From: a virus
Taxonomy: Duplodnaviria; Heunggongvirae; Uroviricota; Caudoviricetes
Reading direction: 5' to 3' (one strand)
IMG/VR virus record: IMGVR_UViG_3300012275_000045
DNA: 5,835 nt
Shown one piece after another: positions 340 to 5,732 of this stretch. The translations under genes and the position numbers were made by a program. Within the stretch, counting starts at the first letter, position 1; every line of letters starts with the position of its first letter. The notes beneath the pieces are model-generated. The model did not search any database, was not told where the DNA came from, and was given only the letters and a program-made list of their open reading frames with translations.

Positions 340-615
340 TCAAATNNNNNNNNNNCCGGCATGCGTAAGCGCATCCAGTGGTGCCTTCAGGATATTGTCC
401 AGGTCGCGGCGGCGCTTATCCGGTGGCTCTGCAATAATCTTTATCGCCAGCCTTCCGGACAGGCTTAATTTCAGCCGCTGCTGGCGAACAATTAGCGCCA
501 CATCACGGCGATAACTCTTTCCGGCTTCCGAGATGAAATACGTATTGCCATGACGTCGCCAGTAGGTATTCACCGTCGGCGGGTAAGGCAAAACAAATTC
601 TATGCGTTCAGTCAT
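340..615 (-). CDS. rusA: RusA-family Holliday junction resolvase (crossover junction endodeoxyribonuclease); C-terminus unresolved because of the N run
   Basis: ORF-track protein MTERIEFVLPYPPTVNTYWRRHGNTY...PDKRRRDLDNILKAPLDALTHA matches the RusA signature as I recall it (LPxPPSxNxY near the N-terminus, PDxRRRDLDN, DALTxAG). ATG at 615..613 directly abuts the TGA stop (618..616) of the upstream DUF968 gene, indicating translational coupling. The model is 91 codons against about 120 for RusA; the 3' end at 340 is an artefact of reading through the N run. Confidence 0.8.
   Translation of the reverse strand: MTERIEFVLPYPPTVNTYWRRHGNTYFISEAGKSYRRDVALIVRQQRLKLSLSGRLAIKIIAEPPDKRRRDLDNILKAPLDALTHAXXXXI
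346..355. other. Run of 10 N (assembly gap or masked bases) inside the rusA 3' region
   Basis: Literal nnnnnnnnnn in the sequence. True length unknown, so the downstream reading frame of rusA cannot be trusted. Confidence 0.95.
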
Positions 616-1675: not shown

Positions 1676-1954
1676 TTACCTCCAGATGCGTTGCTGGAAT
1701 GTGCGGGACGGACGCGGTGGGCGTTCAGAGTAAGGAAGCCTGACGGAGATTATCCAGTGACGATAATCGAGGCTGAGGGCTTTCTTAATCTCGTATCCGT
1801 GTCTGCGGTAGCACTGAATTAGCCACTCGGCCTGTTCTTCAGTGCATGGGTCATGCTGGAACCAGTCAGATTTGAAAGTGCGGGAACGCCGCCCGTGCCT
1901 GCTGGCAAAGACGGCAAAATCATCAGAATTGTGTAATTTGGTATCGTGCGCCAT
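1676..1954 (-). CDS. Small nin-region protein (YbcO/DUF1364-like?), 92 aa
   Basis: The ORF-track model 1676..2035 begins at a TTG that overlaps the upstream terminator. The first ATG is at 1954..1952 (MAHDTKLHNSDDFAVFASRHGRR...), giving 92 aa. Stop TAA at 1678..1676 lies 1 nt before the GTG start of the DUF968 gene. Position and size fit the small nin-region ORFs upstream of rusA in DLP12-like prophages; the family assignment is from memory and tentative. Confidence 0.55.
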   Translation of the reverse strand: MAHDTKLHNSDDFAVFASRHGRRSRTFKSDWFQHDPCTEEQAEWLIQCYRRHGYEIKKALSLDYRHWIISVRLPYSERPPRPSRTFQQRIWR

Positions 1955-2023: not shown

Positions 2024-2052
2024 AGGAAAAAACAAAACCCGCCGAAGCGGGT
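2024..2052 (-). terminator. Rho-independent terminator (minus-strand transcription), tR2-like position upstream of the nin genes
   Basis: Minus-strand RNA reads ACCCGC-UUCG-GCGGGU followed by UUUUGUUUUUUCC: a perfect 6-bp GC-rich stem, UUCG tetraloop and U-tract. It lies about 200 nt downstream of the lipoprotein gene and just upstream of the YbcO-like gene. Confidence 0.75.
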
Positions 2053-2250
2053 ATGCTAAAACAAACTGAAAGTAATATACCGGACTTGTAAAGGAACGAT
2101 AGAATAATTATTGGATTAAACCCTGACTCAATCCAGATTTCATAGGCAACAACTACGGACTAATCATCACAGTCATGTTTGATAGACTTAGTCCACATTG
2201 GGTGAGGGTTTACGGCGTTTTCACTAATAATTTATCGTCCAAGCTATACA

Positions 2251-2643
2251 CTACTGCCCTGTTTTAACGAAGTTTTTAAAGGAAACAACTGCCTGATAGG
2301 GGTTTGGTTGACAGCCAAACATATTATCGCAAAAAGGCTTGATGAAAATTCTTGAGGATCCATCTTCATTTGGCATTTTACTCACTTGATAAGCGAGGAA
2401 TGGACTATTTGGAGAGGGATTATAAGTGGAAATTAGCGTGTCTGTCGCCGTTTGAATTTTCCATGAGGAATTATTAGCCAACCAGAATTGCGCTCGTTTC
2501 CAATAAAAGTCACATTGCTTTTCATCATTACATGTTAGTGGCTTCATTGCTTCTGCTTTCAACGCTGGATCGACCTTTGCTGCACACCCTCCCAACATTA
2601 CTGTTGCAATCATTACACCTGCGACTAAAACAAGTTTCTTCAT
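2251..2643 (-). CDS. Putative Cys-rich lipoprotein (prophage moron), function unknown
   Basis: 130-aa ORF. N-terminus MKKLVLVAGVMIATVMLGGC has a typical signal peptide with lipobox-like LGGC (Cys20). The mature part has four further Cys (CNDEKQC and CDNMFGC). The gene is visibly AT-rich relative to the flanking nin genes and sits between two terminator-like elements that share a 12-mer. A GGGAG lies immediately upstream of the ATG with unusually short spacing. Confidence 0.7.
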   Translation of the reverse strand: MKKLVLVAGVMIATVMLGGCAAKVDPALKAEAMKPLTCNDEKQCDFYWKRAQFWLANNSSWKIQTATDTLISTYNPSPNSPFLAYQVSKMPNEDGSSRIFIKPFCDNMFGCQPNPYQAVVSFKNFVKTGQ

Positions 2644-2694
2644 CTCCCTGCCCCATCAATAAAAGTTCGGTTCTCTAATAACTAGAGTTAATCA

Positions 2695-2717
2695 ACGGAA
2701 AAAACGCCGAAGCGGGT
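2695..2717 (-). terminator. Degenerate terminator-like element at the 3' end of the hok transcript
   Basis: Minus-strand RNA reads AACCCGC-UUCG-GCG-UUUUUU. It shares the 12-mer gccgaagcgggt (plus strand 2706-2717) with the terminator at 2041-2052, but the stem is only 3 bp. It lies about 70 nt downstream of the hok stop. Confidence 0.35.
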
Positions 2718-2786
2718 TAAGTGCGGGTGCGTTGAGGATGCCTGACACATCAGAGGTGGCGAGGGATTTCTCCCCCGCCAGGTCTC

Positions 2787-2942
2787 TTACTCCTCAGGTT
2801 CGTAAGCTGTGAAGACAGCGACCTCCGTCTGGCCGGTTCGGATTCGTACCTCGCAGAGGTCTTTCCTCGTTACCAGTGCCGTCACAATGACGGTTAAACA
2901 GATGACGATCAGGGCGATTAACATCGCCTTTTGCTGCTTCAT
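2787..2942 (-). CDS. hokD: Hok/Gef-family type I toxin (HokD/RelF-like), 51 aa
   Basis: Translation MKQQKAMLIALIVICLTVIVTALVTRKDLCEVRIRTGQTEVAVFTAYEPEE: single TM helix plus the conserved RKxLCEV..R.G..EVAAF/VF motif of Hok/Gef, and it matches my recollection of E. coli HokD/RelF. AAGGAG lies 9 nt upstream of ATG 2942..2940. There is no relB/relE upstream, unlike the K-12 relBEF operon. Confidence 0.9.
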   Translation of the reverse strand: MKQQKAMLIALIVICLTVIVTALVTRKDLCEVRIRTGQTEVAVFTAYEPEE

Positions 2943-2999
2943 AGCCTGCTTCTCCTTGCCTTTCGGCACGTAAGAGGCTAACCTAGATTTGCCGTTCAT
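2787..2999 (-). CDS. mok: Mok-like in-frame N-terminally extended reading frame (modulator of hok translation), 70 codons
   Basis: In-frame upstream ATG at 2999..2997 with GAGG 7 nt upstream. The extension MNGKSRLASYVPKGKEKQA resembles the basic K/E-rich extension of chromosomal Mok proteins as I recall them (e.g. MokC ...RKVKEKRAMKQHK). Mok/hok overlap is the standard architecture of hok/sok loci. Confidence 0.5.
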   Translation of the reverse strand: MNGKSRLASYVPKGKEKQAMKQQKAMLIALIVICLTVIVTALVTRKDLCEVRIRTGQTEVAVFTAYEPEE

Positions 3000-3153
3000 A
3001 GATTGAGCCTCAGATTAATGTTAAGCGTCTTGCAGGACGCGTAATGTTAACTGGGGCTTTTCTCTATCTGCCTTTGGTGTTCATGCCTGAGACAGATAGC
3101 CTCAAGCACCCGCAGCCATTCTACTTAACTCCCGTTACCTCGCCAATATGAAA

Positions 3154-3243
3154 TCAGTCAGAAAGGCGATCCATAAGAACAACAGCAAGGCAATAAATTG
3201 CCATTACAGCAGCAATAGCCAGCGCACATTTGAGAACCAGCAC
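3154..3243 (-). CDS. Candidate small hydrophobic membrane peptide (29 codons), possible type I toxin-like or leader peptide
   Basis: Perfect AGGAGG (3254..3249), 5-nt spacer, GTG start at 3243..3241, TGA stop at 3156..3154. Hand translation: (M)LVLKCALAIAAVMAIYCLAVVLMDRLSD, about 23 hydrophobic residues then an acidic/polar tail. Not in the ORF track because it is below the length cutoff. No homolog recognised. Confidence 0.3.
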   Translation of the reverse strand: MLVLKCALAIAAVMAIYCLAVVLMDRLSD

Positions 3244-3736
3244 CACAACCTCCTGTATTGGACGTACATCAGTCCTGATAAATATGAGGCTGTCTCGTCA
3301 GTGATTCAATACAACTATTGGGTATAGTTTCTGTGATTTTGTTCTGTAGAAATGGAACACAATAACCAGTCACCACCAGCACTTCTTTAAATACGCCAAG
3401 TCCGACGCAAGCTAACCTTCTAGCCCACTTTGAGCGAGAAGCAGACATTTACTTAACTGGATAGCAAGAGACTTCATATATCATGGTTGATCCCGGAGTT
3501 TTCAATAATGGAAAGACATTGCCCGTATGATCGGGCCGTAACCACATTAGAAGCAGGTGCCCTTTGTGAATTTTGATTGTGTCAACCTATCTGTTTTGAA
3601 TTTTTTATAAAAAATATTCGCAAATTTGTGAATTATGAGAGACAAACGAGCATGGACAACCAATGTTACTTTCATACACAATGAAGCAACATGATAAAAG
3701 TACACTGACTTTAGCAAGTAAATTTAGGAGATTGCG

Positions 3737-5071
3737 ATGTTTAGCTTAATCATGGCCGGAGAACCGGACGTTTTTGACCGCTGGCCGTGTATGGACCCAG
3801 GGCTTACAGAAGGCGAGGAAAGATTCTCGATGTCCCGCATGCTGGAAGGCACCCCAAGCGATATTTACAGTAAATTAACACCAATAAGACCCGATACCTT
3901 AAGAGAACTCGCCAAGCTACCAGTATTGTTCATGACCGAAACTTATACAAAAGATGATGAATATGATACAAACAAGTACATCAGGATCAGACTTGGGGAA
4001 ATAAGAAATTTACGTAAAGATGGTGGCGATATTTTATTTTCTTTCAAGATTAATCATAATTTTGGAGAAATAACGAATCCCCAAACGACATTATATAAAG
4101 AAACCCTAGGGCTAGGATCTTTCGGGTTAAGCCGTACACATTGGGCAGTAAAAAATAAGGATTTAAATATTGTTCTGGAATCACTTGGTTTAAACAAACA
4201 AAATAGTCACCTCAAAGGTACAATCAAATTAAAAAAACAAACATACCCAGTAGTCGAGAATATTATAGATTATCTTAATTTCATAAAGAAAAACTTTCGT
4301 GATGGTCTCATTACCTTTTATCGTGGACACTCTAAAAGCTCATATGAGCTTGTCCCCTCTCTTTACAGAAAAAATCAAAACGGGACGTACAGGCATCTTG
4401 CTTCAGAATCTGATTTAGTACGTGAAATACTCAGCGCAAGACCAAATGAATTTAAGGAGGATAAATTTACGATTGATAAACTTGTCCGCATGCAGCATTA
4501 TGGCTTGCCTACAAGACTCTTAGACATTACATCTAACCCACTGATAGCATTATATTTTGCTTGCTGTTCGAACCCCAATGAAAACGGACAGGTGATTTCG
4601 TTTTCAACAAATAGAAAGAAAATTAAATATTTCGACTCAGATACAGTGAGCTGTATAGCAAACTTATCTCTTTTATCTTACGAAGAGTTGGAAAAATTGT
4701 CCTCCTCTGATTCCAGAAAAGGTAATATGGAGTTATCTGAACTCACTGATAAACTTGCAGACCTTATACAGAATGAAAAATCATATTTTAGAAACAGAAT
4801 AATTCCTGATGACTTAAGGAAAGTTGTTTTCCTTAAGGCTAAAATAAATAATGAACGCATACAATCTCAGGCAGGAGCTTTTCTTCTGTTCGGACTTGAT
4901 CCCATTTTACCGGAAACAGATGCTGAGTTTCCTCTTAACAGAGTGGAGATAGCGAACAAAAATAAAATTCTGGAAGAGCTGGCGCAGCTTAATATATCCG
5001 AAAGCACTGTATATCCCAGCATGGAGAAAACGGCAGCAGAAATTAAAAAAAAGTTTTTATCGGTATCATAA
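3737..5071 (+). CDS. FRG-domain protein (444 aa) with an uncharacterised ~190-aa N-terminal region; candidate anti-phage / abortive-infection effector
   Basis: Long ORF in very AT-rich DNA, where random ORFs this long are improbable. TAGGAG (3725-3730) lies 6 nt upstream of ATG 3737; an alternative start is ATG 3830, preceded by GAGGAA. Residues 194-197 FYRG followed by ...YELVPSLYR..., and residues 253-275 QHYGLPTRLLDITSNPLIALYFA, match the FRG domain signature (Pfam FRG, PF08867) as I remember it. C-terminal part is charged and coiled-coil-like (EELEKLSSSD...LADLIQNEK). Only gene on the plus strand in the window, with non-coding DNA on both sides. Confidence 0.85.
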   Translation: MFSLIMAGEPDVFDRWPCMDPGLTEGEERFSMSRMLEGTPSDIYSKLTPIRPDTLRELAKLPVLFMTETYTKDDEYDTNKYIRIRLGEIRNLRKDGGDILFSFKINHNFGEITNPQTTLYKETLGLGSFGLSRTHWAVKNKDLNIVLESLGLNKQNSHLKGTIKLKKQTYPVVENIIDYLNFIKKNFRDGLITFYRGHSKSSYELVPSLYRKNQNGTYRHLASESDLVREILSARPNEFKEDKFTIDKLVRMQHYGLPTRLLDITSNPLIALYFACCSNPNENGQVISFSTNRKKIKYFDSDTVSCIANLSLLSYEELEKLSSSDSRKGNMELSELTDKLADLIQNEKSYFRNRIIPDDLRKVVFLKAKINNERIQSQAGAFLLFGLDPILPETDAEFPLNRVEIANKNKILEELAQLNISESTVYPSMEKTAAEIKKKFLSVS

Positions 5072-5309: not shown

Positions 5310-5732
5310 TCACTTCAAAAAATACCGAACATCCCCCTGATAAAACGACAATATCCGCTGCATAACTTCGCTTTTACGACACTCAGTACAAATTATATTA
5401 TGACGCCTGTCGTAACGACGTATTTCTCCATCAGGTAATGACCAGATAAGGTCCGGATCAACCGCAGATGGTTTCTTCAGCTTTGCCCTTGAGAGCTTTT
5501 TACGGGCATTTTGCCAGTCCTTACGCGCCTGTTCAGACGGGAATAACCCGTAACCAGAGTTGTATACATCGCCGCTGGCAACCAGCTCTCTTGCGAGAAC
5601 GCTCATCAGATATCTTGTCGCACCTGTCTTGACTTCCAGTTGCCGTAACGTCTCACGCCCACTCTGGCGTACGAGTTCAACAACCTGCCCTTTAATTTTT
5701 TCTCGCTCTTCTTGTGTAAAAACTTTTGCCAC
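5310..5732 (-). CDS. Hypothetical prophage protein, 140 aa, basic C-terminal half
   Basis: ORF-track ORF. Start is GTG at 5732..5730 with a perfect AGGAGG 4 nt upstream (taattttcAGGAGGactt-GTG). Protein MAKVFTQEEREKIKGQVVELVRQSGRETLRQLEVKTGATRYLMSVLARELVASGDVY... then a lysine/arginine-rich region (ARKKLSRAKLKKPS) and a single CTEC motif. No family recognised. Confidence 0.65.
   Translation of the reverse strand: MAKVFTQEEREKIKGQVVELVRQSGRETLRQLEVKTGATRYLMSVLARELVASGDVYNSGYGLFPSEQARKDWQNARKKLSRAKLKKPSAVDPDLIWSLPDGEIRRYDRRHNIICTECRKSEVMQRILSFYQGDVRYFLK

What the first reader, a model, noticed from the sequence alone, without database searches (positions are those of the whole stretch)
2024..2717. 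Cys-rich lipoprotein moron bracketed by two terminator-like elements sharing a 12-mer
The lipoprotein gene (2251..2643) is AT-rich and flanked by elements that share the 12-mer gccgaagcgggt (2041-2052 and 2706-2717); the left one is a textbook terminator, the right one degenerate. This suggests a moron cassette inserted at a terminator with partial duplication of the target. Secreted prophage lipoproteins are often superinfection-exclusion or receptor-blocking factors (Llp/Cor-like) or virulence and serum-resistance factors (Bor-like); this one has no similarity I recognise. The two Cys pairs suggest disulfides in a periplasmic domain.
Basis: partly seen in the sequence, partly recalled or inferred. 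Interest (0 to 1): 0.5.

Follow-up and report, generated by a model that had tools for sequence, protein, structure and literature searches.

The report
Prophage lipoprotein cassette in hok terminator
A 665-base AT-rich cassette carrying one small, uncharacterised outer-membrane-type lipoprotein gene sits exactly inside the transcription terminator of the hok toxin gene of an E. coli lambda-like prophage; relatives of the gene are inserted at other spots in many prophages, which suggests, but does not prove, a role in blocking infection by other phages.

Summary
The 130-aa lipoprotein ORF (2251-2643, minus strand), the two GCCGAAGCGGGT copies (2041, 2706), the strong left terminator, the degenerate right one and the low GC are all present.

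Related prophages (phage Evi; about 2,100 E. coli genomes) have one intact terminator and no insert. So this is a 665-bp indel, present in 255 of 5,426 complete E. coli genomes. It lies at the hok mRNA terminator, between hokD and a rem-like gene.

The reading as "target duplication" is only partly supported:
- The same hairpin forms the 5' edge of the cassette in Enterobacter and in another prophage, both in tail-gene contexts.
- The hairpin is a generic terminator, found in at least 100 unrelated viral contigs.
- Recombination between look-alike terminators is at least as likely as duplication.

The protein has no Pfam, NCBIfam or PADLOC family, but belongs to a large unnamed family (532 clusters at E<=1e-10). 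Four Cys residues are conserved, dN/dS is <=0.1, and the confident model has a KA1/BamC-N/Flpp3-like fold.

Relatives lie between tail-tip genes or just downstream of cI-type repressors; some lie in ordinary chromosome.

The best guess (about 0.4) is a superinfection-exclusion or receptor-masking lipoprotein. Function is untested.

The parts
2251..2643 (-). Lipoprotein gene, 130 aa. Signal peptide is residues 1-19 (nt 2587-2643), lipobox L-G-G-C with Cys20 (nt 2584-2586), and Ala at +2. The mature domain is about 110 aa, with Cys38, Cys44, Cys105 and Cys111.
   Evidence: ORF list. Annotated as WP_000737636.1, 'hypothetical protein', in RefSeq. PHROG 16082 matches full length at E=2.6e-84, function unknown. 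No Pfam, NCBIfam or PADLOC hit. The Cys residues and lipobox are conserved across 45 divergent relatives. dN/dS is <=0.1. The AF2 model has pLDDT >90 over the mature part.
2026..2052 (-). Intact intrinsic terminator: hairpin 2037-2052 (ACCCGC-UUCG-GCGGGU) plus U-rich tail 2026-2036. It ends the cassette transcript and, in cassette-free alleles, is the hok mRNA terminator.
   Evidence: Top terminator hit. Folds at -13.1 kcal/mol. It is the single copy present in the empty allele of phage Evi.
2697..2717 (-). Degenerate upstream copy of the hairpin: ACCCGCUUCGGC-GUUUUUUCC. It lacks the 7 nt GGGUUUU that form the 3' half of the stem.
   Evidence: Repeat families D2 and D9. No stable hairpin forms. 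All 54 IMG/VR E. coli copies with a readable junction carry the degenerate form. It is homologous to intact hairpins at the cassette's 5' edge in L005 and L074.
2053..2717 (-). The 665-bp insert relative to empty-site alleles. The boundaries can slide within the 12-bp repeat, so 2041-2705 is equivalent.
   Evidence: Alignment A1 with Evi (empty) and 606R7 (filled). Carried by 255 of 5,426 E. coli genomes. About 2,131 genomes have the uninterrupted junction. GC is about 0.40 against 0.55 in the flanks.
2644..2696 (-). 5' leader of the cassette. It is alignable with the leaders of the Enterobacter, Pantoea, L073 and L074 cassettes. Where those have TGnTAGGAT (an extended -10-like motif), this window has TATTAG (2675-2680). 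A G-rich Shine-Dalgarno region lies at 2644-2654.
   Evidence: Alignment A6 and raw upstream sequences. The consensus scan found no sigma-70-like promoter here.
2053..2250 (-). 198-nt 3' untranslated stretch of the cassette. It is not homologous to the 3' flanks of the cassette in other genera, and occurs in three length variants in E. coli.
   Evidence: Folding is no better than shuffles (z = 0.16). An imperfect inverted repeat lies at 2106-2132 / 2197-2232.
2787..3111 (-). hok/mok/sok locus upstream of the cassette: hok ORF 2787-2942, mok frame to 2999, and the hok mRNA 5' leader / sok region 2937-3111.
   Evidence: Pfam HOK_GEF at E=3e-23. Rfam RF01794, 110 bits, E=3.6e-25. Annotated hokD in RefSeq.
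2724..2747 (-). fbi-like 3' element of the hok mRNA, complementary to its 5' end (3090-3111). It ends 7 nt before the degenerate hairpin.
   Evidence: RNAduplex gives -25.8 kcal/mol.
1676..1954 (-). rem-like gene directly downstream of the intact terminator, followed by ydfU/DUF968 (616-1674) and rusA (340-615). This is the resumption of the prophage backbone.
   Evidence: Annotation; Pfam and PHROG hits.

Best explanation
What it is (confidence about 0.95): a single-gene accessory cassette (moron) in the early-right region of a lambda-like (Qin/Rac-type) E. coli prophage. It sits inside the intrinsic terminator that ends the hok toxin mRNA, between hokD and rem-ydfU-rusA-Q.

How it got there (inferred, about 0.5): recombination between the cassette's own 5' terminator hairpin and the near-identical generic hok terminator. 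This could be a single crossover of a circularised cassette, or short-homology recombination. It would leave one hairpin copy on each side. The upstream copy then lost 7 nt.

How it is expressed (inferred, about 0.4): the upstream hairpin is crippled, and the -10-like motif seen in other cassettes is degraded here. The gene is therefore probably read through from the hok promoter in lysogens and from the early-right operon during lytic growth. Transcription would end at the intact hairpin at 2026-2052.

What the product is (sequence-based, about 0.85):
- a Lol-sorted lipoprotein, acylated at Cys20;
- Ala at +2, which predicts outer-membrane anchoring;
- a compact 110-aa alpha+beta periplasmic domain, probably stabilised by two disulfides.

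What it does (inferred, about 0.4): it acts at the cell envelope to block infection by phages with lambda-type (J) tail tips. It would either mask an outer-membrane receptor or interfere with tail-tip/tape-measure-mediated DNA entry, as Llp, Cor and the mEpimmI Lpp proteins do. It is not related to any of them.
For: Insertion:
- The empty allele has one terminator.
- 255 genomes are filled against about 2,131 empty.
- GC drops across the insert.
- The hok context is shown.

Cassette's own hairpin:
- L005 has CCCGCTTCGGTGGGTTTTGCCGTTAAC and L074 has ACCCGCTTCGGCGGGTTTTTGCG. Both lie at the same position relative to a homologous leader, but in tail-gene contexts.
- Both fold well, at -15.3 and -12.8 kcal/mol.
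- The hairpin is generic: 122 matches in 120 viral contigs, 108 distinct flanks, 118 followed by a T-rich tail.

Real, constrained gene:
- 55 of 56 E. coli copies in IMG/VR are intact.
- pN is 0.03-0.18 while pS is saturated at 0.64-0.96.
- The family has 532 clusters at E<=1e-10.
- Cys20, Cys38, Cys44 and Cys105 are invariant, and Cys111 is present in >=90%.

Phage-centred function:
- Close relatives lie between tape-measure and M, between I and J, and in islands between K and I.
- One lies in a prophage remnant.
- Distant relatives lie in a Bordetella tail module next to a J-like gene and in a GTA-like tail module.
- Two lie directly downstream of S24 cI-type repressors on the same strand. 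That is the classic place for lysogen-expressed exclusion genes.
- The E. coli carriers have lambda-type H-M-L-K-I-J tails.
- The window also carries a candidate defence gene, FRG / PDC-S15.

Precedent: lipoprotein genes inside the structural cluster of mEpimmI coliphages exclude phages that use OmpA or LamB (PMC11893012).
Against: - No experiment exists. The literature search found nothing on WP_000737636.
- There is no sequence or fold similarity to Llp, Cor, Bor or any PADLOC model.
- Four of eight sampled distant relatives lie in ordinary chromosomal neighbourhoods, and some carry a C-terminal PDZ domain. The domain is therefore not intrinsically a phage function.
- The three cassette-bearing prophages examined share one J C-terminus, but so do two of three cassette-free ones. 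No receptor linkage is shown.
- No promoter was identified in the E. coli copy. Read-through is inferred from folding energies only.
- The empty allele could in principle arise by deletion between the repeats.
Confidence: 0.42

Rival explanations
1. The 12-mer pair is a genuine target-site duplication, 12 bp or 28 bp with a later 7-bp loss, made when the cassette was inserted. The resemblance to the hairpin upstream of the Enterobacter and L074 cassettes arises because those copies descend from a hok-site cassette that carried the duplicated terminator with it.
For: The empty allele has exactly one copy and the filled allele has two flanking copies. The extra shared GGAAAAAAC extends the repeat to the whole terminator. 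A hypothetical ancestor, ACCCGCTTCGGCGGGTTTTGTTTTTTCCGTT, explains both the E. coli and Enterobacter forms by small deletions.
Against: There is no transposase, integrase or terminal inverted repeats in or near the cassette. The hairpin is generic and recurs independently. Synonymous sites between the E. coli and other cassettes are saturated, so a recent common hok-site origin is not evident. The Pantoea and L073 copies lack the hairpin.
Confidence: 0.3
2. The lipoprotein is a host-fitness or virulence moron, like Bor (serum resistance) or Lom/Ail (adhesion). It benefits the lysogen in an animal host rather than acting on phages.
For: It is an envelope lipoprotein in a prophage accessory position. 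The carrier prophages also encode Ail/Lom next to J. Carriers include clinical and avian pathogenic isolates.
Against: Relatives occur in prophages of plant-associated and environmental bacteria and in metagenomes: Pantoea, Phytobacter, Achromobacter and Bordetella genomosp.. This argues against a function specific to a mammalian host. There is no similarity to Bor or Lom. The recurrent tail-tip and repressor-operon positions point to phage biology.
Confidence: 0.15
3. The protein is a general periplasmic or envelope module that phages borrowed for some non-exclusion purpose. It might bind a partner protein, peptidoglycan or lipid, as do its chromosomal and PDZ-fused relatives. Possible roles include modulating envelope stress signalling, outer-membrane biogenesis, or protection from the phage's own lysis or tail peptidoglycan hydrolase.
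For: Half of the sampled distant relatives are chromosomal. PDZ fusions exist. The nearest folds are the BamC N-domain, Flpp3 and the lipid-binding KA1 domains.
Confidence: 0.13
4. In E. coli the cassette is a silent, decaying passenger: the promoter is degraded, the 3' region is eroding, and there is no current function.
For: The -10-like motif present in other cassettes is lost. The 3' UTR has three deletion variants. No promoter was found.
Against: The ORF is intact in 55 of 56 copies, and the coding sequence is 95-100% conserved while the UTR varies. Purifying selection is strong across genera. The upstream terminator is disabled in every copy, which permits read-through.
Confidence: 0.05

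Closest known systems
Morons of lambdoid phages (Juhala/Hendrix concept; e.g. lambda bor and lom, HK97 gp15; reviewed in PMC3594210)
   Same: One extra gene lies between two genes that are adjacent in related phages. Its base composition differs from the backbone, it is bounded by a terminator, and the product acts at the cell envelope.
   Different: No convincing own promoter is present in this copy. The cassette carries a terminator-like hairpin at its 5' edge, and here it sits inside another gene's terminator (hok). Expression probably depends on read-through.
T5 Llp and phi80/N15/mEp167 Cor (outer-membrane lipoproteins that block FhuA)
   Same: A small phage-encoded lipoprotein with an outer-membrane-type sorting signal. 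Relatives are encoded next to the receptor-binding tail-tip genes.
Lpp021 / Lpp010 exclusion lipoproteins of mEpimmI coliphages (PMC11893012)
   Same: Lipoprotein genes embedded in the structural or tail gene cluster of temperate coliphages. They were shown experimentally to exclude phages that use the same outer-membrane receptor. This is the closest precedent for the genomic logic.
   Different: No sequence relationship was detected. tblastn of this protein against 50,697 phage records finds only two E. coli prophage-derived phages. The copy in this window lies in the early region, not the tail cluster.
Flpp3 (DUF3568) of Francisella, the BamC N-terminal domain, and eukaryotic KA1 domains
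   Different: Sequence identity is 5-15%, and Foldseek E-values are all >0.01. The pair of CX5C motifs is not a feature of those families. No functional inference is warranted.
hok/sok type I toxin-antitoxin loci (R1 hok/sok; chromosomal hokD)
   Same: The host site is a complete-looking hok locus. It has a mok/hok ORF, a sok-region 5' leader, and 5'-3' (tac/fbi-like) complementarity.
   Different: The cassette is not part of the toxin system. Cassette-free hok loci are about 8 times more common, and relatives of the lipoprotein occur without hok.

Membership tests
Moron (accessory cassette in a phage genome) | Present between two genes that are directly adjacent in related phages | tested here: met
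   Phage Evi and about 2,131 E. coli genomes have hok-terminator-rem uninterrupted. 255 genomes have the 665-bp insert.
Moron (accessory cassette in a phage genome) | Base composition distinct from the surrounding phage genes | tested here: met
   GC is 0.38-0.42 against 0.55-0.59.
Moron (accessory cassette in a phage genome) | Own promoter and own terminator (autonomous transcription unit) | tested here: inconclusive
   A downstream terminator is present. No sigma-70 consensus lies upstream. A TGnTAGGAT motif is conserved in other cassettes but degraded to TATTAG here.
Moron (accessory cassette in a phage genome) | Same gene found at different positions in different phages (independent mobility) | tested here: met
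   Positions found: hok terminator, TMP|M, I|J, K-I islands, repressor operon.
Bacterial lipoprotein (Lgt/LspA/Lnt pathway) | Basic n-region, hydrophobic h-region, lipobox [LVI][ASTVIG][GAS]C with Cys within the first ~35 residues | tested here: met
   MKK-LVLVAGVMIATVM-LGG-C20 is read directly from the sequence. The Cys is invariant and the lipobox conserved in 45 relatives. This was checked by pattern only; SignalP and LipoP were not available.
Bacterial lipoprotein (Lgt/LspA/Lnt pathway) | Actual acylation and outer-membrane localisation (no Asp at +2) | not testable with these tools
   The +2 residue is Ala. Localisation is inferred from the Lol-avoidance rule (established knowledge).
Llp / Cor receptor-blocking lipoproteins | Sequence or fold homology to Llp or Cor | tested here: not met
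   The Cor PHROG match is at E=0.007 over the signal peptide only. There is no Pfam hit. Neither protein appears among the listed structural matches.
Llp / Cor receptor-blocking lipoproteins | Blocks adsorption or DNA entry of phages using a defined outer-membrane receptor | not testable with these tools
   This needs plating and adsorption assays. The J C-terminus comparison was uninformative.
Bor (lambda serum-resistance lipoprotein, PF06291) | Match to the Bor family profile | tested here: not met
   No Pfam or NCBIfam hit at E<=0.01.
Transposable element with target-site duplication | Transposase or integrase gene, or terminal inverted repeats, bounded by a direct duplication | tested here: not met
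   The lipoprotein gene is the only ORF with database or family support in the insert. No terminal inverted repeats are present. Only the direct repeat is there.
Known anti-phage defence systems (PADLOC-DB v2) | Match to any defence-protein model | tested here: not met
   No families match the lipoprotein. The neighbouring FRG gene does match PDC-S15.

The most novel reading that the evidence does not exclude
The gene founds a large, unnamed family of phage-borne outer-membrane lipoproteins: hundreds of sequence clusters across Gamma-, Beta- and Alphaproteobacteria, with a KA1/BamC-N-like fold and two CX5C motifs. This family would be a new class of superinfection-exclusion or receptor-masking factor for siphophages with J-type tail tips. 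Its cassettes would move between phage genomes by recombination between look-alike intrinsic terminators, so that generic terminators act as portable integration sites for morons.
Probability: 0.25. Interest if true: 0.65.

Novelty: new member of a known kind. Interest (0 to 1): 0.4.

Why it matters
If the exclusion role is confirmed, a family with no Pfam entry and only 'hypothetical protein' labels would gain a function. The family comprises 532 clusters at E<=1e-10.

It would also add a structurally new type to the short list of envelope-level phage-exclusion lipoproteins (Llp, Cor, Ltp, mEpimmI Lpp). That is useful for predicting phage host range and phage-therapy failure in E. coli, Enterobacter and Pantoea lysogens.

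The junction anatomy gives a concrete, testable example of how morons may be shuffled between phages using generic terminators as short homology. It also shows how an insertion can rewire a type I toxin transcript (hok) into a bicistronic message.

If the role is not confirmed, this is simply one more uncharacterised prophage moron.

Tried and rejected
- Pfam, NCBIfam and PADLOC scans of the lipoprotein found nothing. A Pfam scan of 45 relatives gave only two marginal DUF6491 hits.
- A PDB sequence-profile search found nothing meaningful.
- Foldseek against BFVD viral structures and against PDB gave no match at E<=0.001. The AFDB50 library was unavailable.
- The genome-contig scan failed. Alignment A4 was too divergent. 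Alignment A3 gave 17 pattern matches, none confirmed. Taxonomic context therefore rests on IMG/VR and on contig look-ups.
- I tested whether the lipoprotein travels with a second conserved gene. The downstream lipoprotein genes in L073, L074 and L013 share only signal peptides, so the idea was rejected.
- I tested whether the 198-nt 3' UTR is a structured RNA or occurs independently. Its fold z-score is 0.16, and it is found only with the cassette. Rejected.
- I tested linkage between the cassette and the J receptor-binding end. The three filled prophages are 96-100% identical, but two of three empty ones have the same type. Inconclusive.
- A promoter-like hit at 2448-2419 lies inside the ORF and was disregarded.
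- The RAST 'mobile element protein' label on a short plus-strand ORF across the terminator has no support and was disregarded.
- The literature search for the accession found nothing.

Full report
**Setting**

The window is the early-right ('nin-like') region of a lambda-like E. coli prophage of the Qin/Rac type, and its backbone genes run on the minus strand.
- From right to left they are: a DUF977 gene (5310-5732), mok/hok (2787-2999), the lipoprotein gene (2251-2643), a rem-like gene (1676-1954), ydfU/DUF968 (616-1674) and rusA (340-615).
- In identical public copies the series continues into Q, tRNAs, the lysis genes and a lambda-type H-M-L-K-I-J tail.

**Observation**

- The 12-mer occurs exactly twice, and no shuffle of 200 reproduced this.
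- The repeat finder extends it to 19 nt at 89% identity plus a further shared GGAAAAAAC. Together these make a 28-nt repeat whose right copy lacks 7 nt.
- The left copy is the best minus-strand terminator in the window: ACCCGC-UUCG-GCGGGU plus a U-tail, at -13.1 kcal/mol.
- The right copy does not fold.
- GC falls from about 0.56 to about 0.40 across the insert.

**The decisive comparison**

- Phage Evi and other records carry the same flanks joined through a single intact terminator (...AAAACCCGCCGAAGCGGG|TTACGTGCGGG...). Phage 606R7 carries the insert with a 68-bp deletion in its 3' part.
- Among 5,426 complete E. coli genomes, 255 carry the cassette. All copies are chromosomal, and 254 are in this same context. 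About 2,131 genomes have the uninterrupted junction.
- So this is a 665-bp insertion/deletion polymorphism bounded by the repeat.

**What the target is**

- Rfam's sok/hok-leader model matches 2937-3111 on the minus strand at 110 bits.
- The 5' end of that RNA pairs with 2724-2747 at -25.8 kcal/mol. This is the tac/fbi-type arrangement known from hok mRNAs (established knowledge of the R1 hok/sok system).
- The fbi-like element ends 7 nt before the hairpin. The duplicated element is therefore the hok mRNA terminator.

**Duplication or recombination?**

Three results argue against a simple target duplication.
- In Enterobacter hormaechei the homologous gene (81% amino-acid identity) lies between the tape-measure gene and M. 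It is preceded, at the same distance from a homologous leader, by CCCGCTTCGGTGGGTTTTG.
- In L074, in an island between K and I, it is preceded by the perfect ACCCGCTTCGGCGGGTTTTTG. Both hairpins fold well.
- The 16-mer hairpin is generic. The capped scan found it in 120 IMG/VR contigs. One hundred of these lack the hok context, there are 108 different flanks, and 118 of 122 matches are followed by a T-rich tail.

Two further points bear on the question.
- Synonymous sites between the cassettes are saturated, so the shared hairpin is either maintained or repeatedly re-created.
- No transposase, integrase or terminal inverted repeat is present.

I therefore favour recombination between look-alike terminators. 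A single crossover of a circular cassette would leave exactly this footprint. A true duplication cannot be excluded.

**Expression (inferred)**

- All 54 IMG/VR E. coli copies with a readable junction carry the degenerate upstream hairpin.
- The other cassettes have TGnTAGGAT about 36-41 nt upstream of the start, an extended -10-like motif. The E. coli copy has TATTAG there.
- The consensus scan finds no promoter.
- The simplest reading is read-through from hok and from the early operon, ending at the intact hairpin.

**The protein**

- It has a basic n-region, a 14-residue hydrophobic core and the lipobox LGG-C20, with Ala at +2. This is a pattern-level lipoprotein call that predicts outer-membrane sorting.
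- No Pfam, NCBIfam or PADLOC family matches. PHROG 16082 (function unknown) covers it end to end.
- Close homologues (67-85% identity) occur only in Enterobacterales.
- A profile search of 1.84 billion representatives finds 1,141 clusters at E<=1e-3 and 532 at E<=1e-10. Every named relative in the search output and every member of the ten clusters looked up is 'hypothetical', except one labelled 'PDZ domain-containing protein'.
- Across 45 divergent members, Cys20, Cys38, Cys44 and Cys105 are invariant, and Cys111 is present in >=90%. This gives two CX5C pairs.
- Some relatives of about 230 aa add a C-terminal PDZ domain.
- Purifying selection is strong, and 55 of 56 E. coli copies are intact.
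- AlphaFold2 gives pLDDT >90 over the mature domain.
- Foldseek agrees, but nothing passes E<=0.001 in PDB or in the BFVD viral library. The fold is a common scaffold and does not reveal function.

**Context as functional evidence**

| Relatives | Position |
|---|---|
| Enterobacter | between tape-measure and M |
| Pantoea | between I and J |
| L073, L074 | accessory islands between K and I |
| Phytobacter | prophage remnant |
| Bordetella (distant) | tail module next to a J-like gene |
| P0162 (distant) | GTA-like tail module |
| P0164 (Achromobacter) and P0166 (metagenome contig; both distant) | immediately downstream of S24 cI-type repressors, same strand |
| four distant members | ordinary chromosomal neighbourhoods |

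- Distant relatives here are 31-44% identical.
- The gene is thus a mobile, non-essential accessory gene. It recurs beside receptor-binding tail-tip genes or in lysogen-expressed immunity operons.
- This mirrors known exclusion genes. It specifically mirrors the structural-cluster lipoproteins of mEpimmI coliphages, which exclude OmpA- or LamB-dependent phages (PMC11893012).
- The breadth across plant-associated and environmental hosts argues against a virulence role specific to an animal host.
- A small test of linkage to the J receptor-binding end was uninformative.

**Verdict**

- The structural part of the finding is confirmed and refined: a moron inside the hok terminator.
- The 'target duplication' reading is plausible but not the best supported.
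- The Llp/Cor/Bor analogy is a reasonable hypothesis about how the protein works. Membership in those families was tested and not met.
- Function remains untested.
- Novelty is modest: a new, uncharacterised member of the known class of prophage envelope morons.

Noticed in passing
window 3737-5071 (+): A 444-aa FRG-domain protein (Pfam PF08867, E=2.7e-22) matches the PADLOC candidate single-gene defence system PDC-S15 (E=2.7e-99). It is AT-rich (GC about 0.35-0.38 at its start) and on the opposite strand to the phage backbone. It is a second accessory insert in the same region, which suggests a prophage defence or accessory hotspot.
   Followed up: partly
window 3154-3246 (-): A 30-aa hydrophobic ORF (MVLVLKCALAIAAVMAIYCLAVVLMDRLSD, GTG start) is preceded by AGGAGG and lies just upstream of the hok promoter region. 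It could be a small membrane peptide or a type I toxin-like gene. RefSeq does not annotate it in the strain examined.
   Followed up: no
window 346-355 and 1315-1324: Two runs of exactly 10 N interrupt rusA and ydfU. They look like deliberate masking rather than assembly gaps.
   Followed up: no
window 2724-2747 and 3090-3111 (-): The hok locus looks complete: a mok/hok ORF, a sok-region leader at 110 bits, and 5'/3' complementarity at -25.8 kcal/mol. The insertion replaces its terminator with a non-folding remnant, so the hok mRNA 3' end that normally controls activation may be altered in cassette carriers.
   Followed up: partly
window 2106-2132 / 2197-2232: An imperfect 16+16-nt inverted repeat lies in the cassette's 3' UTR. 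The 68-bp deletion variant (606R7 type) removes the segment between the arms. The whole-UTR fold is no better than shuffles.
   Followed up: partly
L207 8514-9041 (E. coli 2015C-4136CT1 prophage); L204/L205/L206 next to gpJ: The gap between I and J holds a sodC moron in a cassette-free prophage, and Ail/Lom follows J in all six prophages examined. The tail-tip gene junctions are thus general moron insertion points.
   Followed up: no
L073 6374-6784, L074 6332-6679, L013 6434-6979: In three unrelated prophages the family member is immediately followed by another predicted lipoprotein gene. These downstream proteins share only their signal peptides.
   Followed up: yes
L001 3997-4110, L002 3009-3131, L003 2952-3110: Phage records annotate a short plus-strand ORF spanning the hok terminator as 'mobile element protein'. 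Nothing in the sequence supports a mobile-element function, so this looks like propagated mis-annotation.
   Followed up: no
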